Source: Escherichia phage vB_EcoS-EE09
Sequence record: OR756193.1
Length of the DNA stretch: 44,198 bases
Direction: 5' to 3' (one strand)
Position numbers and translations under genes: made by a program. Of this stretch, positions 1,438 to 44,198 are shown piece after piece. Every line of letters starts with the position of its first letter. The first letter of the stretch is position 1. The notes beneath the pieces are model-generated. The model ran no database searches and was not told the origin of the DNA. It was given only the letters and a program-made list of their open reading frames with translations.

Positions 1438-1904
1438 AATTACTGATTTGCGATTTGGATGGAGTTATTAACGGTTCAAGCGATGCGCGCGCCGACCTGG
1501 TGCCTGGTATAAAAACTAAATCCACCTTTTGGGCGAAGTGGCACAAGGCGCACGTACGCGAAGACCTGAATATGGATATGCTGCCGCTGCTGACCATGTA
1601 CAAAGAGCAAGGCTTCGAGATCGCGTATCTGACCAACCGGCAGCGAGAATGCTGGGACACCACAGCCGAGCAACTGGAAGTATTCCCGAACGGCCGGTTG
1701 TTTATGCGCCACATGCTGGACGACACCCCGCCGCCAGAGTTTAAAGCGTACGCTGTGTTCAAAATGGTCTGCTATGCGGACGTATCGGAACTGGTCATCA
1801 TTGAAGACTGTCCGAAGAACATCGCGGCAATTCGTCGGGCGTGCAGCGATTTAGTCCCTAAAATTTATGCGATAAACGTGGCAAAATTCACTTGCAACCA
1901 ATAG
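1434..1904 (+). CDS. HAD-superfamily phosphatase (nucleotidase or polynucleotide 3'-phosphatase-like)
   Basis: N-terminal HAD motif I LICDLDGV (DxDxV); start overlaps the upstream stop (ATGA). Confidence 0.6.
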   Translation: MKLLICDLDGVINGSSDARADLVPGIKTKSTFWAKWHKAHVREDLNMDMLPLLTMYKEQGFEIAYLTNRQRECWDTTAEQLEVFPNGRLFMRHMLDDTPPPEFKAYAVFKMVCYADVSELVIIEDCPKNIAAIRRACSDLVPKIYAINVAKFTCNQ

Positions 1905-1921
1905 GTTGGTTGCACTATAGT
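1892..1921 (+). promoter_or_regulatory. candidate sigma70-type promoter carrying an inverted pair of the TTGGTTGCA motif
   Basis: -35-like TTGCAA, 18-nt spacer, -10-like TATAGT; the spacer is the inverted repeat TGCAACCAA-tagg-TTGGTTGCA; lies upstream of the CDS at 1966. Confidence 0.4.
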
Positions 1922-3105: not shown

Positions 3106-3131
3106 AAAAGGGGCCGCATGGCCCCTTCTAA
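3104..3131. terminator. bidirectional rho-independent terminator between convergent genes
   Basis: Perfect hairpin GGGGCC-gcat-GGCCCC flanked by an A5 run on one side and a T-rich run on the other; sits between the stop at 3105 (+) and the stop at 3132 (-). Confidence 0.75.
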
Positions 3132-4968: not shown

Positions 4969-4978
4969 ATTGGTTGCA
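4969..4978. promoter_or_regulatory. ATTGGTTGCA motif in the divergent region between tail fibre and lipoprotein genes
   Basis: Exact 10-mer shared with 20819, 20832, 44170, 44187 and, in reverse, 1893, 31484, 31515, 34812. Confidence 0.5.
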
Positions 4979-5032: not shown

Positions 5033-5251
5033 ATGAAAACTTTAATTATGATTTGTGCGGTTCTTCTGTCTGGTTGTGCCGGTATGCCGTCTAAAATCTG
5101 CGACGCGACGTACCAGAATAGCGGCATGGATTACTCAGTCCCCGTGTTTGGGGTTGCAGACTTCTCCGGGCATAAAATGCTAAGGGCTGGCTATCCGTTT
5201 AGCTTCCAGTACGTGTCGGTCAACCACTTCAAAAGCACCACCTGCAGATAA
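5033..5251 (+). CDS. small secreted lipoprotein (72 aa); candidate Cor/Llp-like superinfection exclusion protein
   Basis: RBS AGGAG 8 nt upstream of ATG; signal peptide with lipobox (MKTLIMICAVLLSGC); opposite orientation to the surrounding tail genes, terminator hairpins on both sides. Confidence 0.65.
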   Translation: MKTLIMICAVLLSGCAGMPSKICDATYQNSGMDYSVPVFGVADFSGHKMLRAGYPFSFQYVSVNHFKSTTCR

Positions 5252-15094: not shown

Positions 15095-15420
15095 AAACCT
15101 TATTCAGTCTCAGACGAGGGGGGCCGTTGACCCCCGTCTAGTCTGAAAGACTGGAGTTTGTCCCGCCTGTCCCGATCGGCTGAAAACCGCGGCAGCACTG
15201 GCGGGGACGGGGTGCTGTCCCGCTTTGTCCCGCCCCTGGTCTGTCCCGCTTTCTGTCCCGTTTGGTTTATGCAGATTTCGTGCATAGGTATGCACACTTA
15301 GAGGGTGGGACAAAGCGGGACGTCCCGCCTGTCCCGCTTTGGGTTTATGCAGTGGGAGTGAGTAGATATGCAGTTTTACAGAGGCGGGACAAAACGGGAC
15401 GTCCCGCCTGTCCCGCTTCA
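15095..15420. repeat. non-coding structured element: hairpin plus arrays of GTCCCGC direct and inverted repeats
   Basis: Hairpin AGACGAGGGGGG-ccgttga-CCCCCGTCT, then at least eight GTCCCGC units (for example GGGACAAAGCGGGACGTCCCGCCTGTCCCGC) and recurring TTTATGCA; a diverged second copy lies at about 31670-31800. Confidence 0.7.
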
Positions 15421-20805: not shown

Positions 20806-20841
20806 TTGCAATCCGCGTATTGGTTGCATATATTGGTTGCA
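20806..20841 (+). promoter_or_regulatory. candidate sigma70-type promoter with tandem ATTGGTTGCA motifs
   Basis: -35-like TTGCAA, 17-nt spacer containing ATTGGTTGCA, -10-like TATATT, then a second ATTGGTTGCA; 17-nt identity ATTGGTTGCACACCAAC with the reverse-strand motif upstream of the gene starting at 31460. Confidence 0.45.
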
Positions 20842-21628
20842 CACCAACAACGAGGACACAAAAAAGAGACTGACTAAAGACATTAAAAATCAGATTCTGG
20901 CTAACATCCTGCGCGACCACGAAATAGCGACAGAAGCAAAATCAATAATGATGGACTCGCGCGACCTGGCGTACGCCATTACGCTGGACTGTATGCCAGA
21001 AGGCATTCGCACGTTCGCCGAGCTACTCGCGCGCATTGAAGCAATCGGCGATGACCCGTCGCAGATGTACGGCGTCTGTGTATACACCAACAAGGCGACG
21101 TATAGTTATAACACCGACCGCCCGAAAGGCATCGGCAGCGTTTACGACGCCACTTTCGAAATCAACGCAGGCGGAAACGTCCGTACCGTGTCATTGAGCG
21201 GAGACGGATACCGATTCCGAGTACATCGCGGATACTGGGAGTATAAATACATGAATAAACTGTCTCCCGATCTCGGCGATATTGTGCCAGGGTATGAGGA
21301 AATTTTGTTAGCGTCAGTGTGCGAAGTCGACGACGACGGGAAAGCACTGCCGATATATCTCCCACGCGGCCGTGTAGACTACCCGGCGGATCATGATTTC
21401 TGTAAGCGCCTTGACCGTAACGATAAGGCCCGCCGCGATTTGCGAGCTAAGTATGACGCGTTCAAACTAACTGTTACCGGTGTGCTGGATATGCACAATA
21501 CCGATAAGAAGCTGATCAAGGAGTGGCCTGAAGTGGAACAGTTCATTCCTTACCCGGACAAGCCGAAGTCCACGGCGGTGGCGCTGGACGTTAAGACGTT
21601 AAACGAGATTTGCGGTATTCCGCGCTAA
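20837..21628 (+). CDS. hypothetical protein (up to 263 aa) on the opposite strand inside the head module
   Basis: ORF track; start uncertain (track start is a TTG inside the promoter motif; first in-frame ATG near 20947); own promoter-like region upstream and terminator downstream; no motif recognised. Confidence 0.55.
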   Translation: MHTNNEDTKKRLTKDIKNQILANILRDHEIATEAKSIMMDSRDLAYAITLDCMPEGIRTFAELLARIEAIGDDPSQMYGVCVYTNKATYSYNTDRPKGIGSVYDATFEINAGGNVRTVSLSGDGYRFRVHRGYWEYKYMNKLSPDLGDIVPGYEEILLASVCEVDDDGKALPIYLPRGRVDYPADHDFCKRLDRNDKARRDLRAKYDAFKLTVTGVLDMHNTDKKLIKEWPEVEQFIPYPDKPKSTAVALDVKTLNEICGIPR

Positions 21629-21630
21629 CG

Positions 21631-21655
21631 AAAAGGGGGCCATCACGGCCCCCGA
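21631..21655. terminator. bidirectional terminator
   Basis: GGGGGCC-atcac-GGCCCCC hairpin with an A-run upstream and T-runs on both strands; overlaps the last codons of the o-spanin gene. Confidence 0.7.
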
Positions 21656-27967: not shown

Positions 27968-27992
27968 AAAAGCCCGGAATTAACCGGGCTTG
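27968..27992 (-). terminator. rho-independent terminator after the Ig-like protein gene
   Basis: AGCCCGG-ttaatt-CCGGGCT hairpin followed by TTTTTATT on the minus strand. Confidence 0.7.
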
Positions 27993-30705: not shown

Positions 30706-30971
30706 TTGCTCAGTCTCCAGTGTTTTCCTACCCGCTCAACGGCGGGCTTCCGGCGTAATGTAATACGAATCCCCATTGGTTGCAAGGAAGTCCGCACCCT
30801 GAAATCGTGTTGTGCTGCGAACTGGTGTAAGTAGCGAGTCTGCGTCAACGGCTTTACGTCGTCGCGATAGCACCAGAATACCGATTCGCCCTCAACTGCA
30901 TTCTCAGCCCATATTCGTATGCAATGCAGGGGAATATGCCACGAAAGCTGTTTTGCTCGTCTACGTCCCAT
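30702..30971 (-). CDS. hypothetical protein (89 aa)
   Basis: ORF track; RBS AAGGGG upstream of ATG. Confidence 0.5.
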   Translation of the reverse strand: MGRRRAKQLSWHIPLHCIRIWAENAVEGESVFWCYRDDVKPLTQTRYLHQFAAQHDFRVRTSLQPMGIRITLRRKPAVERVGKHWRLSK

Positions 30972-30980
30972 TTTGGCCCC

Positions 30981-31460
30981 TTATTTCGCAAGCTGGGCGA
31001 ATAACTCACGCTGGGCTTTAATCCTGGCGACGTTTGTCACTGCCTTCTCGCCAATACCGAAGCGATAAGCCAGGCGCTCACGGGAGAATGCCAGCGCGTA
31101 TTCATGGATTGCCTTACGCAGCGGACCCAGGTCATCCATGCTGGCGTCCATATCGTCTAGCGCACACATGATTGACTGGTGTGCCAGTGTCGCAAACTGG
31201 CGCGCACGGTCTACGTTGCCGTTCAGCGCCTTCGCTTCGTTCAGCTTTGCCAGGGCCAGTGAGTAATTCCAGATTAGTGCTCTCATTGTTCGGTCCTTCT
31301 TAGTGTTGTCGTCAACAATCGAGGCTTTTCCGGAATTAACACGAATCATCACATCGTCCAGGGTAGACATGCAAGTCGCCCCGCTTTCATAGGTGCCCTG
31401 GTCGTTGCTGGTGAAGGTGATAGTTGATTTACCGTCTTTGATGGTTACTGGAAATTTCAT
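30981..31460 (-). CDS. hypothetical protein (159 aa)
   Basis: ORF track; RBS GAGAGGA upstream of ATG; preceded on its strand by two ATTGGTTGCA motifs. Confidence 0.55.
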   Translation of the reverse strand: MKFPVTIKDGKSTITFTSNDQGTYESGATCMSTLDDVMIRVNSGKASIVDDNTKKDRTMRALIWNYSLALAKLNEAKALNGNVDRARQFATLAHQSIMCALDDMDASMDDLGPLRKAIHEYALAFSRERLAYRFGIGEKAVTNVARIKAQRELFAQLAK

Positions 31461-31479
31461 TTTGTTTGGTCCTCTCGTT

Positions 31480-31530
31480 GGTGTGCAACCAATCTAGCAG
31501 GGTGCCAGGCTGAATGCAACCAATATTAAT
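31480..31530 (-). promoter_or_regulatory. promoter-like region with two ATTGGTTGCA motifs (reverse strand)
   Basis: Two exact copies about 31 bp apart, 25-55 bp upstream of the start at 31460; the proximal copy extends to ATTGGTTGCACACCAAC, identical to the motif at 20832. Confidence 0.45.
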
Positions 31531-31669
31531 CATGCGTATGAAAAAGTTGATCGCTATCTGCTGTGGCTGCAAACTGCATTTTTCACTCAGCATAATACAA
31601 CCCGCATTGGTTGCCTAGTTCATCCGCGACCGCACTTCGCATCATGCTGCCGTGTATTTTGCAATCCCC

Positions 31670-31800
31670 GGATTTTATTCAGTCTCAGACGAGGGGGGCC
31701 GTTGACCCCCGTCTAGTCTGAAAGACTGGGGTGCTGTCCCGCTTTGTCCCGCCTAGTGTTTGTCCCGCTTTTTGTCCCGTTTGGTTTATGCAATAAAACT
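31670..31800. repeat. second copy of the hairpin plus GTCCCGC-array element
   Basis: TTATTCAGTCTCAGACGAGGGGGGCCGTTGACCCCCGTCTAGTCTGAAAGACTGG...GTCCCGCTTTGTCCCGCC...GTTTGGTTTATGCA matches the copy at about 15095-15285 apart from a roughly 50-bp internal deletion and a few substitutions. Confidence 0.7.
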
Positions 31801-31829
31801 GCATAACTATTCATCTCATCTACACTACA

Positions 31830-31930
31830 CGGCAACCAATACGACCAGATAAAAACACGCAAAATGGCAACCAATACGCGCACAAATTAATCGTCTAGCG
31901 ATATGGGAATTCCCATATCGGCAACCAATG
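31830..31930. repeat. three iteron-like GGCAACCAAT(A/G)CG repeats plus a 22-bp perfect palindrome
   Basis: Direct repeats cGGCAACCAATACGa, tGGCAACCAATACGc, cGGCAACCAATGCGc; palindrome CGATATGGGAATTCCCATATCG at about 31899-31920; AT-rich flank; directly 3' of the primase-helicase gene. Confidence 0.6.
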
Positions 31931-31940
31931 CGCGCAAAAT

Positions 31941-34282
31941 TTAATCTTTCAGGTCATCATCGGTCGCCGAAAGCGTGATGGGTATATTTGTTTTGATGAC
32001 GATATTCGACGACCCATAGATGGCCCCGGTGTGCGGATCTGTATAAAAACCTAGCACGCCGCGATCCACCATATCGTCTATTGCCTTCGTCGATGTGCCA
32101 CCTTTTGCCAATCCCGCCTGGCGGACGATTGCCGATTTACTGAATCCGGTATGGTCCGGGTTATCTTCCATCAGTTTTTCCAGTGCCGCATAAAGCACTT
32201 TCTCTTTTTCGTTGCGCGGCCCCGCGGCATTTTCTTCCTTAACTGCGGCTTTGCCAGCGGCCTTTGCCTGCTCAATAGCGAACGGTGCCAGGGCGACCGG
32301 TACGAGATACAGAGTCTCGTCGCGTGGCGTGGACGCGATCGGCTTGACGTCCCAACCGGCAACCACATCGCCGAAGTCAGGCCCGGTGCTGGTGGACTGG
32401 TGCGATTCGAACGCCTCGGACTTGCGGAGATCCACCTTAACCTTGCACTTGAGCAGGACGAATCCGCGCGGCGCTTGCTTGATGCCGTTACGTGCCTTTT
32501 CGTGATACAGGTTCAATTGGCCTGGTTGATTGTCGTCCGGTTGCTCCAGGAAGAACGCAGAATCAACAGCACCATGCAGCGCGCCGGACCCGCGTGGGGA
32601 TCTGCTGCCGTTTGCACCCTTCGCCGGGTGGTGGATGACGCCCGCACTGCCGCCTGTATTTTCCGCGATGGCCTTCAGCGCCTTGACCACTTCGCCCATA
32701 TCGCTGGCGTTGTTCTCGTCGAACGGTTTAGCATCGGCGGACCGCAGCGCAACAGTCTGGTTGAGTGAGTCGAACGCCACCAGGCCAACCGGTTCGCCGT
32801 TAGCGGTGCGGTTGATAAAGCTGATAACTTCACGCAAGCCGGATTTGCTGGTGATATCCCAGCCGCGAGATTGCAGGTCGATAATGTGCAGCTTGTCCAG
32901 GTCGTGCTCATATTTGATCTGCAATGCTTCCTTACGCTGGTTGGAGGCTTCGCCACCTTCCGCGTCGAAATAGAAGCAATGAGACTGGACGACCTTCGCA
33001 CCACCGAACGGGATCCCCGCGGCAACCGCACCCATTTGGCCCAGCACGTAGAACGATTTACCGATGTTCGATTCGCCAGCCATATACCAGGTCGATTTGA
33101 AGTTGACCAGGCCTTCTATGATCGGGTCGTGCTTACTGAACAGTGCGACCGGTTCGTTATCCAGGTCAGCGTCGGTACATACGCCGTACTCGTCGCCGTC
33201 TCCGACCGCATCAACGATATGCGCATAGCACGATTCCACTTCCTCGTCGTCCAGTCCTGGGAGGATGGCGGCGATTTGCTTACGTGACATGTTGTGCGGT
33301 TCGACGTTCAGGTGGTCCGGGATCCCGATAAGACGTAGCGCCAGGTGCTGGTGTCTGTTCAGTTCCGAGCAACACTCGTTGCCGGTGTGCATACACTTGA
33401 AACGGATCTCGCCATCCTTAACCATGATAGCGGTGGACCCTTCGCCGCTGTGCAGGTGTTCGTTCGGGCATGGCACTTCATAACCACGACCGGACGACAG
33501 CGGTTCGAATCCTGCCTGGAAGCACCAGTCCAGAATTCCGTCCGTTACGCCAGCGTCGCCCTGGGTCAGTTCGCGGCGCACTTCCTCTTTTTCCACTCCC
33601 CGCTTATCAGCCAGGCGGAGCAGACGACGGACGCGGGCGCGCTTGCCATAGTGGCACTTAATAACAGACTGCTGGTGTGGCAGGTACATCAGGCGGTTTG
33701 TGTCTTTCGTGCAGTCGTCGAAGTCCACATCGGACAAACCAAGTTGGTGTAATAGCGCATACTGGACGCGGCCCAGGTCTTCCGCCGGTACAGGCTTGTC
33801 GGTCAACACCAGGAAACGGGCGCAACGCGTGGCGCATACTGGACGCGGCCCAGGTCTTCCGCCGGTACAGGCTTGTCGGTCAACACCAGGAAACGGGCGC
33901 AACGCGTGCCGCCTTTCAGCGGGTGGCGGTCGCCGGTTGTGGTGTGAAATACGTGTTCCAGCCCCGCGTCAATGAACGCCTTACGGCAGCGGCGTAGGGT
34001 GCGGGTGTCGGTACGGTCGATATCAAAGAACAGGATCGAGCGGTCCACCGCACTGGTCTTACGACGCAATCCGTCACTGGTATACGCCACGATGCCATCG
34101 GCCTTACGCTTGCGGCGCGCATACTCGGCTTTATCTTCCGTCTTATTGATATGCACCGAGGAGATTTCTTTCGCATCATTGATAAATTCGAAAAATTCAT
34201 CGGTGGTCATCTGGAAGTTTTCCGCCCTGGCTTTTTCGCCTTTTTTAGCGGGTCTTGTTACAGCGAATTTAATTAAGCTCAT
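31941..34282 (-). pseudogene. DNA primase-helicase (AEP/PrimPol-like N-domain plus P-loop NTPase), frame broken by a 77-bp tandem duplication
   Basis: N-terminal ORF (33803-34282) has the AEP motif LFFDIDR and a conserved His; the C-terminal ORF (31941-33902) has a Cys/His cluster and Walker A GESNIGKS; both contain TRCARFLVLTDKPVPAEDLGRVQYA; removing one 77-bp copy gives a single 2265-nt (754-codon) frame. Confidence 0.7.
33755..33908. repeat. perfect 77-bp tandem direct duplication (two copies)
   Basis: 33755-33831 is identical to 33832-33908 (GCGCATACTGGACGCGGCCCAGGTCTTCCGCCGGTACAGGCTTGTCGGTCAACACCAGGAAACGGGCGCAACGCGTG). Confidence 0.9.
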
Positions 34283-34292
34283 TGCCGTGGCC

Positions 34293-34622
34293 TTACTTAG
34301 AAGTTTTATTATTGCGTACCCAGGAGCGCACTGTGCTCTGATTAATTCCGGTCAACTCGGCAATCATCGCCCAGGATTTGCCCTCGGCGCGCAAACGGAT
34401 AACCTGTTTTTTGTATTCTTCCATTTCTTCATTGTGCTTTTGCAGCTTGCTTGCTGCAGTACCGTTGAGTAATTCCAGCTTCGCGCGCAATTCTTTTTCG
34501 GTAAGTCGCAGACGTTCGATTTCAAATAGCACCGCACCCACGGCATCGGTATACGCCCATGACCGGCTTGTTTCACTGCTAACAGTCTTCGTTAACATTT
34601 CGATTGCGTCGTTTACATTCAT
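34293..34622 (-). CDS. small HTH DNA-binding protein (109 aa), putative regulator
   Basis: Coiled-coil-like N-terminus and C-terminal helix-turn-helix-like KSWAMIAELTGINQSTVRSWV; first gene of the leftward unit. Confidence 0.55.
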   Translation of the reverse strand: MNVNDAIEMLTKTVSSETSRSWAYTDAVGAVLFEIERLRLTEKELRAKLELLNGTAASKLQKHNEEMEEYKKQVIRLRAEGKSWAMIAELTGINQSTVRSWVRNNKTSK

Positions 34623-34653
34623 TGTTCTGTCCCCAGTTGGTTAATGACCAATG

Positions 34654-34682
34654 AAACTACACCTAAAACCGCAAGGTGTCAA
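34654..34682 (-). promoter_or_regulatory. candidate leftward sigma70 promoter with overlapping palindromic operator
   Basis: On the minus strand: TTGACA, 17-nt spacer, TAGTTT; near-palindrome TTGGTTAATGACCAA (about 34637-34651) lies between the predicted start site and the RBS of the HTH gene. Confidence 0.4.
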
Positions 34683-34753
34683 ATCCTTTGGATATTGAAA
34701 CGGGCGCGCACGCGTGTAATAATAATTCCCGTCTCATTGTCTCTTATTGGTTA

Positions 34754-34787
34754 GCGCCGTCGCATTTTGCCTCGGCGCTTTTTTTTT
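34754..34787 (+). terminator. plus-strand rho-independent terminator inside the divergent control region
   Basis: GCGCCG-13 nt loop-CGGCGC hairpin followed by a T9 run; no annotated plus-strand gene upstream. Confidence 0.6.
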
Positions 34788-34798
34788 GAAATTAGTTG

Positions 34799-34828
34799 TT
34801 GACACCCATCCTGCAACCAATCTATTAT
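34799..34828 (+). promoter_or_regulatory. candidate strong rightward sigma70 early promoter
   Basis: Consensus -35 TTGACA, 18-nt spacer containing TGCAACCAAT, -10 TATTAT; about 200 bp upstream of the first rightward gene. Confidence 0.5.
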
Positions 34829-37462: not shown

Positions 37463-37697
37463 AGTATTCGCAGTCTTATTGATGTTTTTTCTCGGCGCGC
37501 TGGGCTTTATCCTGCATTGCGTGCAAGGCGTGTTAATGGTGGCGTGGATGATTCGCCATCCGACCCGCTGGCTGGATGACGGCTATAGCGAAGTTGCCGT
37601 CGATTGGGTGGAAAAGAACATCGACCGACCGCCGCTAAGCTGGATCGAGAACGCCACCAACTACGTTACCCGAAATCTTTTTAATGAAAATGCTTGA
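37455..37697 (+). CDS. small membrane protein (80 aa)
   Basis: ORF track; N-terminal hydrophobic segments (VFAVLLMFFLGALGFILHCVQGVLMVAWMI). Confidence 0.45.
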   Translation: MNKVFAVLLMFFLGALGFILHCVQGVLMVAWMIRHPTRWLDDGYSEVAVDWVEKNIDRPPLSWIENATNYVTRNLFNENA

Positions 37698-37787
37698 CCG
37701 CTTAGGCGCAACCAAGTAGATTAGCAACCAAGCCGAACGGGGTGGCTTCCAATAACCCCGATACATGTGAAAATGAGGAATTGGAAA

Positions 37788-40958: not shown

Positions 40959-41236
40959 TGACACCAGAAGGCAAGATTCAAAGTCACCTGATGAGACGGG
41001 TGAAAGATGTTGGCGGATTCTGCCGAAAACTGGCATGGGAGGGGCGCGCAGGTGCGCCCGACCTGATTATTATCATCAACGGCAAAATAGTGTTCGTCGA
41101 AGTGAAGCGCCCCGGAGGAAAACCGAAGCCGCACCAGGTACGTGAACATGAGCGAATGGCCCGCCGCGGTGCGGACGTTCGTGTTATCGACAACATAGCC
41201 GACTGCGATTTATTGGTTGCTGAATTGGTCGCGTAG
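40958..41236 (+). CDS. VRR-NUC domain nuclease (92 aa)
   Basis: ORF track trimmed to the ATG overlapping the polymerase stop (TAATG); PD-(D/E)xK core DLIIIINGKIVFVEVK. Confidence 0.6.
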   Translation: MTPEGKIQSHLMRRVKDVGGFCRKLAWEGRAGAPDLIIIINGKIVFVEVKRPGGKPKPHQVREHERMARRGADVRVIDNIADCDLLVAELVA

Positions 41237-44169: not shown

Positions 44170-44196
44170 ATTGGTTGCATAATTAGATTGGTTGCA
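44170..44196 (+). promoter_or_regulatory. tandem ATTGGTTGCA motifs at the right edge of the window
   Basis: Two exact copies 17 bp apart immediately after the stop of the last gene, same tandem arrangement as at 20819-20841. Confidence 0.5.
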
Positions 44197-44198
44197 TT

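What the first reader, a model, noticed from the sequence alone, without database searches (positions are those of the whole stretch)
31830..31930. Iteron-like direct repeats and a 22-bp perfect palindrome downstream of the primase-helicase gene
Three direct repeats GGCAACCAAT(A/G)CG(A/C) spaced roughly 35 and 54 bp apart are followed by the perfect palindrome CGATATGGGAATTCCCATATCG (contains GAATTC), with AT-rich sequence on the flank. Iterons plus a dyad plus AT-rich DNA next to the initiator or primase gene is the classic layout of a replication origin. Alternatively it is an operator cluster for a dimeric regulator.
Basis: partly seen in the sequence, partly recalled or inferred. Interest (0 to 1): 0.55.

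Follow-up and report, generated by a model that had tools for sequence, protein, structure and literature searches.

The report
Regulator sites beside a candidate phage origin
The three repeats are real, but they are copies of an exact 9-base word found 15 times across this E. coli phage genome, mostly inside promoters, so they look like sites for a phage gene regulator rather than origin-specific iterons. The palindrome is an optional 54-base insertion.

Summary
The window is a complete Dhillonvirus-type E. coli siphophage genome.

- The core (ATTGGTTGC on the transcribed strand) occurs 15 times (0.41 expected), six of them in this 480-bp gap. The rest lie in other intergenic regions, mostly pointing with the downstream gene and overlapping sigma-70-like promoters.
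- All relatives share the word at homologous places.
- The palindrome plus the third repeat form a 54-bp duplication-insertion. It is present in about half of Dhillonviruses and is therefore dispensable.

This module is duplicated at 15.1-15.4 kb in every Dhillonvirus. One-locus versions with lineage-specific repeats occur in two distant metagenomic relatives.

Best reading: the repeats are auxiliary sites of a promoter-associated regulator. The candidate regulator is the 109-aa HTH protein encoded at the head of the helicase-primase operon. They sit next to a possible origin. The origin reading is not excluded. I found no description of any of these elements in the literature searched.

The parts
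31831..31843 (-). Class B repeat copy 1 (reads CGTATTGGTTGCC on the minus, transcribed strand). No promoter context.
   Evidence: Invariant in 15 genomes.
31866..31878 (-). Class B repeat copy 2 (CGTATTGGTTGCC). No promoter context.
31920..31932 (-). Class B repeat copy 3 (CGCATTGGTTGCC), 8 bp after the helicase-primase stop codon. Because the unit is a tandem duplication, either this 33-bp copy or its twin at 31866-31898 can be counted as the extra one.
31603..31615 (+).
31899..31920 (.). Perfect 22-bp palindrome CGATATGGGAATTCCCATATCG.
   Evidence: Unique in the window. Variants in relatives break the symmetry on one side only. The same 22-mer occurs in more than 120 other viral contigs.
31866..31952 (.). 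Duplication structure: 33-bp copy (31920-31952, includes the stop codon), 21-bp palindrome core (31899-31919), second 33-bp copy (31866-31898). The 54-bp extra unit is present or absent among relatives.
   Evidence: present in 6 of 15 aligned genomes; 84 records cover at least 80% of a 58-bp probe, against 158 records that match the gap.
31786..31812 (.). AT-rich dyad TTATGCA-N7-TGCATAA inside GAATAGTTATGCA. The 7-nt loop is inverted between genomes. The 13-mer is conserved in relatives with only 41-55% identical helicase-primase.
31735..31779 (-). Array of four (G)CGGGACA repeats, spaced 12, 16 and 10 bp on the minus strand. The window lacks 56 bp and 2-3 further copies that every relative has.
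31680..31728 (-). Long GC-rich hairpin. The stem is invariant and the loop is free to vary. No U-tract follows.
   Evidence: -27 kcal/mol, z -3.8; 18 pairs, none covarying; no terminator called.
31644..31655 (-). Conserved box ACACGGCAGCAT, also present in distant relatives.
31491..31550 (-). Two tandem sigma-70-like promoters for the downstream unit: TCAACT-16-TAATAT and TTGCAT-17-TAGATT. They overlap class A motif copies at 31516-31524 and 31485-31493. The start codon is at 31460.
   Evidence: Homologous TTGACT/TTGACA-17-TATTAT/TATTGT promoters in L028 and L025. Below the threshold of the scan.
15104..15420 (-). Second copy of the module: nine CGGGACA copies (direct and inverted), CTGCATA pairs 21 bp apart and the identical hairpin. 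It lies between the tail-chaperone ORF and the tape-measure gene and is followed by an extended -10 (TGATACAAT).
1894..1913 (.). Dispersed copy in a palindromic arrangement GCAACCAAT-AGG-TTGGTTGC, inside TTGCAA-18-TATAGT.
4969..4977 (+). Dispersed copy (TAAATTGGTTGCA), 55 nt upstream of an opposite-strand lipoprotein (Cor-like) gene.
20819..20840 (+). Two copies 13 bp apart inside TTGCAA-17-TATATT, upstream of the opposite-strand Nmad5 gene.
34813..34821 (.). Copy in the spacer of the strongest promoter in the genome (TTGACA-18-TATTAT, rightward). On the other strand it reads TAGATTGGTTGCAG-16-TAATTT.
37708..37732 (+). Two GCAACCAAG variants flanking the -10 of TTGACC-17-TAGATT, upstream of the SSB-like gene.
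41212..41232 (+). Copy that supplies the -35 of TTGCTG-17-TATAGT, upstream of the Lar-like gene. A 1-mismatch copy lies 12 bp downstream.
44170..44195 (+). Two copies 17 bp apart (TTGCAT-17-TATCTT), upstream of the ligase-like gene that begins across the window junction.
30775..30783 (+). Copy inside a coding region, pointing against transcription.
   Evidence: Homologous site Bas84 40127 lies in gp57.
34293..34622 (-). 109-aa protein with a C-terminal HTH (HTH_23, HTH_28, Sigma70_r4_2). First gene of the helicase-primase operon. Candidate binder of ATTGGTTGC.
31941..34282 (-). Replicative helicase-primase (AAA_25 / RepA-like helicase core and a C-terminal winged helix). It is split in this window by a 77-bp tandem duplication.

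Best explanation
The three repeats are copies of one exact 9-bp word, ATTGGTTGC on the transcribed strand. I read this word as the recognition site of a sequence-specific DNA-binding protein made by the phage.

Most copies in the genome lie inside or against sigma-70-type promoter cores: at the -35, in the spacer, or at -10/+1. Those promoters precede early or accessory genes. A protein bound there would control RNA polymerase access. Repression is the most likely mode, because the register varies from promoter to promoter.

The 480-bp non-coding gap after the helicase-primase gene holds the densest cluster, with six copies. Two of them overlap the tandem promoters of the next transcription unit. 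The three flagged copies and one inverted copy form a separate subclass, CGYATTGGTTGCC, with no promoter around them. I infer that these are auxiliary sites. They could act by cooperative binding or looping onto the promoter copies, or as a roadblock at the end of the replication operon.

The candidate protein is the 109-aa HTH protein encoded at the head of the same operon.

The palindrome and the third copy arose by a 54-bp duplication-insertion. About half of the relatives lack it, so it is not a core part.

Shown: the sites, their dispersion, their promoter association, their conservation and the insertion polymorphism. Inferred: protein binding, the identity of the protein, and repression.
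For: Dispersion and placement:
- 15 exact copies against 0.41 expected, and 16 against 0.45 in phage Bas84.
- One-mismatch copies are at background: 24 hits in total against 11.8 expected, 15 of them the exact ones.
- In Bas84, 13 of 16 copies lie outside credible coding sequence (binomial p = 7e-15). Outside the gap, 8 of 11 do (p = 6e-9).
- SSL-2009a and EP23 carry 14 and 12 copies at homologous places.
- 12 of 15 copies point with the downstream gene. Copies sit in front of the two opposite-strand genes.

Promoter association:
- TAnATT is formed at 6 of 15 copies, against 3.8% of control ATT sites (p = 1e-5).
- TAnnnT lies 16-18 nt after the TTGCnn of the word at 4 of 15 copies, against 3.9% (p = 0.002).
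- The word lies inside the promoter-like hits at 34799 (11 of 12 matches), 20806 and 1892. Its GCAACCAAG variant flanks the -10 at 37694.
- None of the four class B copies has either promoter feature.

Conservation:
- In 15 aligned genomes the copies are invariant while the spacers vary.
- The gap carries indels of 1, 16, 54 and 56 nt and non-conserved start codons, so it is non-coding.
- The 54-bp unit is present in 6 of 15 aligned genomes. In GenBank 84 records carry it, against 158 records that match the gap.

Candidate binder:
- The HTH protein is encoded at the head of the operon.
- Its HTH is conserved in every lineage that has the word, including L018. It was not detected within the 6-kb loci of nine relatives that lack the word, nor in L029, which carries the related word GCAACCAAC.
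Against: - No binding data exist, and the assignment of the HTH protein rests only on position and co-occurrence.
- L029 has seven copies of the near-identical word GCAACCAAC in its gap. It encodes an XRE-type HTH upstream of the helicase-primase instead. This points to a conserved protein such as the helicase-primase as the binder.
- Fifteen exact copies with no degenerate ones is unusual for a transcription-factor site.
- The flagged copies are exactly the ones without promoter context, so their role is the least supported part.
- The word itself contains -35-like (TTGCA) and -10-like (nnnATT) pieces. It could therefore be a promoter element rather than an operator.
- The total count of promoter-like hits in the genome is no higher than chance.
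Confidence: 0.55

Rival explanations
1. Replication origin. The gap is the phage origin (or one of two). The ATTGGTTGCC repeats are iterons for an initiator, which would be the winged-helix end of the helicase-primase or the HTH protein. The AT-rich TTATGCA region is where the DNA opens. The copies at promoters would then be autoregulatory or coupling sites, as in iteron plasmids.
For: - The gap lies immediately downstream of the helicase-primase gene, is non-coding and is conserved.
- L029 has seven GCAACCAAC copies in an AT-rich 900-bp gap.
- The adjacent module of dyad, array and hairpin is conserved in layout, with lineage-specific repeats, in relatives at 41-55% protein identity.
- The module occurs at two loci per Dhillonvirus genome.
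- The loop of the small dyad is inverted between genomes, as expected if the hairpin forms during replication.
Against: - 9 of 15 copies of the word lie outside the gap, at promoters.
- The third repeat and the palindrome are dispensable, and L010 has lost a further copy.
- The AT-rich stretch ranks only about 8th to 12th in the genome, and there are no consensus DnaA boxes in either locus.
- Helix 3 of the winged helix is acidic in Dhillonviruses (GTSTKAIDDMVDR). It is almost the same in L025 and L028, although their arrays differ.
- GC skew turns at the divergent promoters near 34-35 kb and is confounded with gene direction.
Confidence: 0.25
2. Promoter element. ATTGGTTGC(A) is part of a family of promoter cassettes (TTGCAn-N17-TAnATTGGTTGCA) that spread by duplication. 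The word would be recognised by RNA polymerase itself, or by polymerase modified by a phage factor. The copies in the finding are decayed, non-functional cassettes.
For: - There is significant excess of TAn before the word and of TAnnnT 16-18 nt after its TTGC.
- The tandem copy pair at 31516 and 31485 makes a complete promoter out of two copies.
- Exact identity of all copies fits spread by duplication.
- The HTH protein resembles sigma-70 region 4.
Against: - There is no fixed register. The word is found at the -35, in the spacer in both orientations, and at -10/+1.
- Four copies have no promoter features, yet they are invariant across the genus, which decay would not predict.
- One pair is followed directly by a terminator-like hairpin.
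Confidence: 0.12
3. The palindrome is itself a functional operator for a dimeric protein, or a mobile or recombination footprint. In either case it acts independently of the direct repeats.
For: - It is a perfect 22-bp dyad.
- The same 22-mer, with its CG ends, recurs in more than 120 other viral contigs with unrelated flanks. Of 111 occurrences, 74 are not inside a long ORF, for example upstream of hokD in lambdoid prophages.
- In Dhillonviruses it is flanked by a 33-bp direct duplication.
Against: - It is absent from about half of the Dhillonviruses.
- Where present, substitutions are one-sided and break the symmetry.
- 37 of the 111 outside occurrences lie inside long ORFs. Of these, 24 are KilA-N-like genes, where the sequence encodes DMGIPIS. 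Searching for one exact pattern selects such codon choices.
- No paper in the library mentions it.
Confidence: 0.1

Closest known systems
Promoter-associated phage regulator sites: T4 MotA boxes at middle promoters, and lambda CI/Cro operators (from general knowledge, not tested here)
   Same: A short phage-specific word is repeated at many promoters around the genome and overlaps the core promoter. A small phage DNA-binding protein is encoded early.
   Different: MotA boxes sit at a fixed position near -30 and are degenerate. Lambda operators are 17-bp dyads at two loci. Here the word is an exact asymmetric 9-mer in variable register and orientation. There is also a promoter-less cluster of four copies. 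No binding has been shown.
Iteron plasmids such as pSC101 and P1, where the initiator binds direct repeats at the origin and related inverted repeats at its own promoter (from general knowledge)
   Same: The same word appears as direct repeats next to the replication gene and AT-rich DNA. It also appears in partly palindromic form over promoters: ATTGGT-N5-ACCAAC at 31485, at 20832 and, degenerate, at the leftward early promoter.
   Different: Plasmid iterons are 17-22 bp and confined to the origin and control loci. Here the word is 9 bp and sits at about ten loci, including structural-gene regions. No Rep-family initiator is encoded.
Satellite phage P4: ori and crr, with the gp-alpha primase-helicase (from general knowledge)
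   Same: One polypeptide carries a primase, a helicase and a C-terminal winged helix. Two separate clusters of short repeats occur per genome (the CGGGACA arrays at 31.7 and 15.3 kb).
   Different: P4 alpha has a superfamily-3 helicase, whereas this protein has an AAA_25 (RepA/RecA-like) core. P4 alpha was not among the top 60 fold matches. Binding of the arrays by this protein is untested. Its helix 3 is acidic.
IncQ plasmid RSF1010 oriV: iterons, GC-rich and AT-rich segments, and ssiA/ssiB hairpins used by RepB' primase with RepA helicase (from general knowledge)
   Same: The helicase belongs to the same Pfam family (AAA_25). The layout is a short-repeat array, an AT-rich segment and a stable conserved hairpin whose stem is fixed and whose loop is free.
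   Different: The RSF1010 ssi hairpins lie on opposite strands within one origin. Here there is one hairpin per locus, and both lie on the same strand 16.5 kb apart. No RepC-like protein was identified.
Bacillus phage SPP1 oriL and oriR (from general knowledge)
   Same: There are two distant loci with the same repeated boxes. One is next to the replication genes and one is in the late region.
   Different: SPP1 uses a dedicated origin-binding protein (G38P) and a DnaB-type helicase with a loader. No sequence relationship was tested.

Membership tests
Iteron-type replication origin | Several direct repeats of one binding site clustered at the locus | tested here: met
   Three direct 13-mers, plus two further core copies and one inverted copy, within 450 bp.
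Iteron-type replication origin | The repeats are confined to the origin and control loci | tested here: not met
   9 of 15 exact copies lie at eight other places in the genome (seven of them intergenic), mostly at promoters. The neighbouring CGGGACA repeats do meet this feature: two clusters hold 13 of 17 copies.
Iteron-type replication origin | An adjacent AT-rich unwinding element | tested here: inconclusive
   31768-31830 is 30-38% GC and falls in the least stable 0.2% of windows, but it is only about the 8th to 12th distinct region.
Iteron-type replication origin | An initiator with a DNA-binding domain encoded nearby | tested here: inconclusive
   A winged helix lies at the C-terminus of the helicase-primase, and a 109-aa HTH protein is encoded upstream. 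Specificity is unknown, and helix 3 is acidic.
Iteron-type replication origin | Conservation of all parts in relatives | tested here: not met
   The palindrome and one repeat are absent from 9 of 15 aligned genomes, and only 84 GenBank records carry them against 158 that match the gap. A second copy is deleted in L010.
Iteron-type replication origin | Origin activity (initiation mapped here, or autonomous replication) | not testable with these tools
   No replication data are available, and GC skew is confounded with transcription direction.
Operator set of a phage transcription regulator | The word is over-represented and restricted to non-coding DNA | tested here: met
   15 copies against 0.41 expected. 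13 of 16 Bas84 copies are non-coding, p = 7e-15.
Operator set of a phage transcription regulator | Overlap with core promoter elements | tested here: met
   (p = 1e-5 and p = 0.002). Not met for the four class B copies, which include the three in the finding.
Operator set of a phage transcription regulator | Sites conserved while flanks diverge | tested here: met
Operator set of a phage transcription regulator | A cognate regulator binds the sites | not testable with these tools
   There is only a candidate, the HTH protein. L029 argues against it.
Intrinsic (Rho-independent) terminator, for the long hairpin | A GC-rich stem-loop followed by a U-tract | tested here: not met
   The stem is stable (-27 kcal/mol), but GAGACUGAAUAA follows it. 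No terminator was called in 30900-32100.
Any Rfam RNA family | A score at or above the family gathering threshold | tested here: not met
   0 matches in the whole window.
P4 ori/crr with alpha-type primase-helicase | Two iteron clusters, and a primase-helicase with a C-terminal origin-binding winged helix | tested here: inconclusive
   Two CGGGACA clusters and a winged-helix fold are present. The helicase family differs (AAA_25), and binding is untested.
DnaA-dependent origin | Consensus DnaA boxes TTATNCACA | tested here: not met
   No exact box in the window. Only two 1-mismatch boxes were found, both at the second locus, and none in the gap.

The most novel reading that the evidence does not exclude
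The gap and its paralogue at 15.1-15.4 kb together form a two-locus replicator, like P4 ori/crr or SPP1 oriL/oriR. It would serve a primase-helicase with a winged-helix end. Its parts would be a conserved TTATGCA loading dyad, lineage-specific short-repeat arrays and an ssi-type hairpin of the kind used in IncQ plasmids. The one-locus form of this design is seen in two distant metagenomic relatives. The ATTGGTTGC word would be bound by a replication-linked protein that also gates a set of early promoters, so that replication and transcription are coupled through one 9-bp word.
Probability: 0.2. Interest if true: 0.65.

Novelty: new member of a known kind. Interest (0 to 1): 0.42.

Why it matters
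Dhillonviruses are common, easily isolated E. coli phages. They are used in the BASEL collection and in phage-therapy and defence-system work. Despite this, I found no description of their promoters, regulators or origin in the literature I could search.

This analysis gives concrete handles that can be tested directly:
- one exact 9-bp word marking about ten control regions;
- a candidate regulator;
- a two-copy module of repeat array plus hairpin that is the best origin candidate.

These also tell phage engineers which non-coding DNA must not be disturbed. They show that the 54-bp palindrome unit can be removed, since natural variants lack it.

If the origin reading were confirmed, it would define the replicator for a family of helicase-primases that is also present in Salmonella phages annotated in GenBank.

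Tried and rejected
- Rfam on the whole window: no family.
- Promoter and terminator consensus scan of the gap: nothing at the tool's threshold. Genome-wide promoter-like counts equal chance, so only individual strong hits were used.
- DnaA boxes and the stability profile: no consensus boxes, and only a moderately unstable AT stretch.
- GC skew: the minimum lies at the divergent promoters and is confounded with gene direction.
- Literature: nothing on Dhillonvirus promoters, repeats or origin, nor on the 9-mer or the palindrome.
- Reading the small ORFs that others annotate in the gap as genes: rejected. Start codons are not conserved and there are indels of 1, 16 and 56 nt.
- Covariation in the long hairpin: the stems are invariant, so the test says nothing.
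- Sequence search of the helicase-primase against solved structures: no hits.
- Profile of its C-terminus against solved structures: hit BurrH at E = 4e-23. This is the sum of 18 weak matches of one 20-residue motif (GFSxSxIVKxAGxGG). I treat it as a helix-loop-helix resemblance, not as homology.
- Single-sequence AlphaFold model: unusable, pLDDT 38. A homologue search with the 150-aa fragment found one protein only. The full-length search and a 43-row alignment were needed.
- Sigma-54 promoter reading (TGGCA-N-GC): fits one copy only, so rejected by eye.
- Host GntR-type box (TTGGT-N3-ACCAA, recalled from memory): the spacing is different and most sites are single half-sites. Not pursued.
- Search for a second AGGGATA locus in the contig of L028: only the gap matched the 15-mer used, so this is inconclusive.
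- Loci fetched by accession (L002-L004) were not available to scripts, so genome-wide work on relatives relied on tool counts and on the Bas84 annotation table.

Full report
WHAT THE WINDOW IS. The 600 bp around the finding match 158 GenBank phage records. Almost all are E. coli or Shigella phages of the genus Dhillonvirus (HK578 / SSL-2009a / EP23 group), and the best match is Bas84 at 87%. The window is about one genome long, and its end joins its start. The motif pair at 44170 and 44187 is followed across the junction by the hairpin and gene that follow it in Bas84. Relative to the deposited genomes the window is reverse-complemented. Around the finding, genes run on the minus strand. The order is the HTH gene (34293-34622), the helicase-primase (31941-34282), a 480-bp gap, and then small genes, lysis genes, terminase and structural genes.

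THE OBSERVATION. It is correct to the base. GGCAACCAATRCG lies at 31831, 31866 and 31920, with spacing 35 and 54 bp. The perfect palindrome CGATATGGGAATTCCCATATCG lies at 31899-31920. Both are directly after the helicase-primase stop codon. The palindrome is unique even with three mismatches allowed.

- an exact inverted 13-mer at 31603-31615;
- two more copies of the core at 31485 and 31516;
- the rest of the genome.

THE CORE WORD IS DISPERSED. GCAACCAAT occurs 15 times against 0.41 expected, and no shuffle gave more than 2. Nine copies are outside the gap: 1894, 4969, 20819, 20832, 30775, 34813, 41212, 44170 and 44187. Bas84 has 16 copies (0.45 expected). SSL-2009a has 14 and EP23 has 12, at homologous places.

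Copies with one mismatch are at the chance level, so the word is unusually exact.

Using the Bas84 annotation, 13 of 16 copies lie outside credible coding sequence (p = 7e-15). This holds when the gap is left out: 8 of 11 (p = 6e-9).

Read as ATTGGTTGC, 12 of the 15 window copies point the same way as the gene downstream. Copies sit directly in front of the two genes that lie on the opposite strand from their neighbours. These are the Nmad5 gene at 20837 and a lipoprotein gene starting near 5033.

PROMOTER ASSOCIATION. The word lies within sigma-70-like promoter cores at several places:
- In the spacer of the best promoter in the genome, TTGACA-18-TATTAT at 34799, which matches 11 of 12 positions.
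- In the spacer and at -10/+1 of TTGCAA-17-TATATT at 20806.
- Inside TTGCAA-18-TATAGT at 1892.
- Supplying the -35 of TTGCAT-17-TAGATT (31516 to 31485), TTGCTG-17-TATAGT (41212), TTGCAT-17-TATCTT (44170) and TTGCAG-16-TAATTT (34813).
- Two GCAACCAAG variants bracket the -10 of TTGACC-17-TAGATT at 37694, before the SSB-like gene.

Against genome-wide controls, TAn precedes the word at 6 of 15 copies (3.8% expected, p = 1e-5). TAnnnT follows its TTGCnn at 16-18 nt in 4 of 15 copies (3.9% expected, p = 0.002).

The register is not constant. That fits an operator better than a fixed promoter element.

The four copies of the subclass CGYATTGGTTGCC, which are the three in the finding plus the inverted one, have neither promoter feature. 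They are nevertheless invariant across the genus.

THE GAP IN RELATIVES. I aligned the window with 14 IMG/VR Dhillonvirus loci. Read in the direction of transcription, the gap contains these elements in order:
1. The stop codon, followed by ATTGGTTGCC copies.
2. An AT-rich stretch containing GAATAGTTATGCA-N7-TGCATAA.
3. CGGGACA repeats.
4. A long GC hairpin.
5. The box ACACGGCAGCAT.
6. An inverted copy of the word.
7. Two tandem promoters overlapped by two copies.
8. The ribosome-binding site and ATG.

The gap is non-coding. It carries indels of 1, 16, 54 and 56 nt, and the start codons of the small ORFs that some records annotate are not conserved.

THE 54-BP UNIT. It consists of one 33-bp copy of CTnAAAGATTAAATTTTGCGCGCATTGGTTGCC plus the 21-bp palindrome core. 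It is a tandem duplication-insertion, present in 6 of the 15 aligned genomes. In GenBank, 84 records cover at least 80% of a 58-bp probe, against 158 records that match the gap. Where the palindrome is present, its variants (GGGGATTCCC, GGGAATCCCC, CAATATGG, CGGTATGG) break the symmetry on one side only. The palindrome and the third repeat are therefore not core parts.

THE PALINDROME ELSEWHERE. Of 111 occurrences, 37 lie in long ORFs. Of these, 24 are KilA-N-like genes, where the sequence encodes DMGIPIS. The other 74 are not in long ORFs. They include a conserved site about 200 bp upstream of hokD in lambdoid prophages, whose surrounding 221-bp segment matches 2,460 of 5,426 complete E. coli genomes.

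Searching for one exact pattern selects codon choices, so the coding hits may be chance. The non-coding ones fall into a few flank families and remain unexplained. No paper in the library mentions the sequence.

GCGGGACA is over-represented, with 12 hits against 2.1 expected. Ten of those 12 hits lie in two clusters: 31735-31768 and 15159-15416. The second cluster lies in the 384-bp gap between the tail-chaperone ORF and the tape-measure gene. It carries the same hairpin, base for base, and the same TGCATAA elements. The hairpin sequence occurs twice in nearly every Dhillonvirus contig in IMG/VR.

The hairpin is stable (-27 kcal/mol, z -3.8). Its stem is invariant, its loop is free to vary, and it shows no covariation. 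No U-tract follows it, so it is not a standard terminator.

In relatives whose helicase-primase is only 41-55% identical, the layout persists with different repeats. In each case the array is followed by a GC hairpin, an ACACGGCA box and a strong sigma-70 promoter:
- L025: GAATAGTTA(T/G)GCA twice, 21 bp apart, then CCGACA repeats.
- L028: the same dyad pair, then AGGGATA repeats.
- L029: seven copies of GCAACCAAC.

Within the 6-kb loci these arrays are confined to the gap. This is the pattern expected of a specialised cis-acting site, such as an origin. It makes the CGGGACA array a better iteron candidate than the repeats in the finding.

CANDIDATE PROTEINS. The 109-aa product of 34293-34622 has a C-terminal HTH, with hits to HTH_23, HTH_28 and Sigma70_r4_2 and weak sigma-70/ECF hits. 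Its HTH is conserved in all lineages that have the word, including L018 and the divergent allele in L011. It was not detected within the 6-kb loci of the relatives that lack the word. L029, however, has a near-identical word and an XRE-type HTH instead.

VERDICT. The three repeats are best explained as auxiliary sites of a promoter-associated, genome-wide set of binding sites for a phage protein (confidence about 0.55). They lie in a composite control region that may also contain the replication origin. The origin reading for these repeats stands at about 0.25. A pure promoter-element reading stands at about 0.12.

The palindrome is a dispensable insertion of unknown meaning. I found no published description of any of these elements. 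The kinds of element involved (operators, iterons, hairpins) are all known kinds.

Noticed in passing
window 15104-15420 (minus strand): A second copy of the CGGGACA array plus the identical long hairpin, with CTGCATA pairs 21 bp apart. It lies between the tail-chaperone ORF and the tape-measure gene and is followed by an extended -10 (TGATACAAT). Nearly every Dhillonvirus contig in IMG/VR has both loci.
   Followed up: yes
window 33755-33908: A perfect 77-bp tandem duplication inside the helicase-primase gene. It shifts the frame and splits the gene into ORFs of 159 and 653 aa that overlap by about 25 residues. None of the listed GenBank records has it (each spans only 127-129 nt for the duplicated query). 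It is either an assembly artefact or a recent mutation.
   Followed up: partly
window about 31735 (between CGGGACAGCACCCC repeats): The window alone lacks 56 bp of the array, including 2-3 CGGGACA copies and one inverted copy. All 14 aligned relatives have this segment. The deletion lies between two 14-bp direct repeats.
   Followed up: partly
window 31786-31806: The element TTATGCA-[ATAAAAC or GTTTTAT]-TGCATAA is exactly inverted between genomes (a loop flip). This is the kind of change produced by hairpin-mediated template switching.
   Followed up: partly
window 31899-31920; loci L168-L285; L286 2592-2613: The 22-bp palindrome recurs in more than 120 unrelated viral contigs. Some occurrences are inside KilA-N-like genes, where it encodes DMGIPIS. 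Many are non-coding, for example about 200 bp upstream of hokD in lambdoid prophages of E. coli.
   Followed up: partly
window 34695-34790 (plus strand): A candidate small RNA of about 60 nt between the divergent early promoters. The promoter is TTGAAA-17-AATAAT with an upstream TG. A hairpin GCGCCG...CGGCGC followed by T9 comes next. The stem shows changes on both sides that keep pairing in L017 (TCCCCG/CGGGGA) and L018. There is no Rfam match.
   Followed up: partly
window 34625-34681 (minus strand): The leftward early promoter TTGACA-17-TAGTTT is followed by ATTGGTCATTAACCAAC. This is a degenerate, partly palindromic relative of the ATTGGTTGCACACCAAC found at 31485 and 20832.
   Followed up: partly
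window 37694-37732: A promoter-like site TTGACC-17-TAGATT whose -10 is bracketed by two GCAACCAAG copies 16 bp apart, upstream of the SSB-like gene.
   Followed up: partly
locus L029 3740-4670: A relative with a 55% identical helicase-primase has a 900-bp gap holding seven GCAACCAAC copies and three TTATGC(A) elements, but no CGGGACA-type array. It encodes an XRE-type HTH upstream of the helicase-primase instead of the HTH_23-type protein.
   Followed up: partly
window 31944-32150 (protein C-terminus): The winged helix of the helicase-primase contains a 20-residue stretch (GFSKSAIVRQAGLAKGG) that resembles one repeat of the TALE-like protein BurrH. The low E-value comes from summing 18 weak repeat matches.
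   Followed up: partly
window 20837-21628 (plus strand): A gene with a nucleotide-modification-associated domain (Nmad5, PF18757, E = 4e-54) sits on the opposite strand among head genes, behind a promoter that carries the motif.
   Followed up: no
window 27970-27991, 21635-21653, 3106-3129: Hairpins that score as terminators on both strands at boundaries between gene blocks.
   Followed up: no
window 44170-44198 joined to 1-35: The window end joins its start, so this is a complete circularly permuted genome. The motif pair is followed at once by a strong terminator-like hairpin, AAGGGTGTCCGGTTGGACGCCCTT plus a T run, before the ligase-like gene. This is an odd order if the pair is a promoter.
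   Followed up: partly
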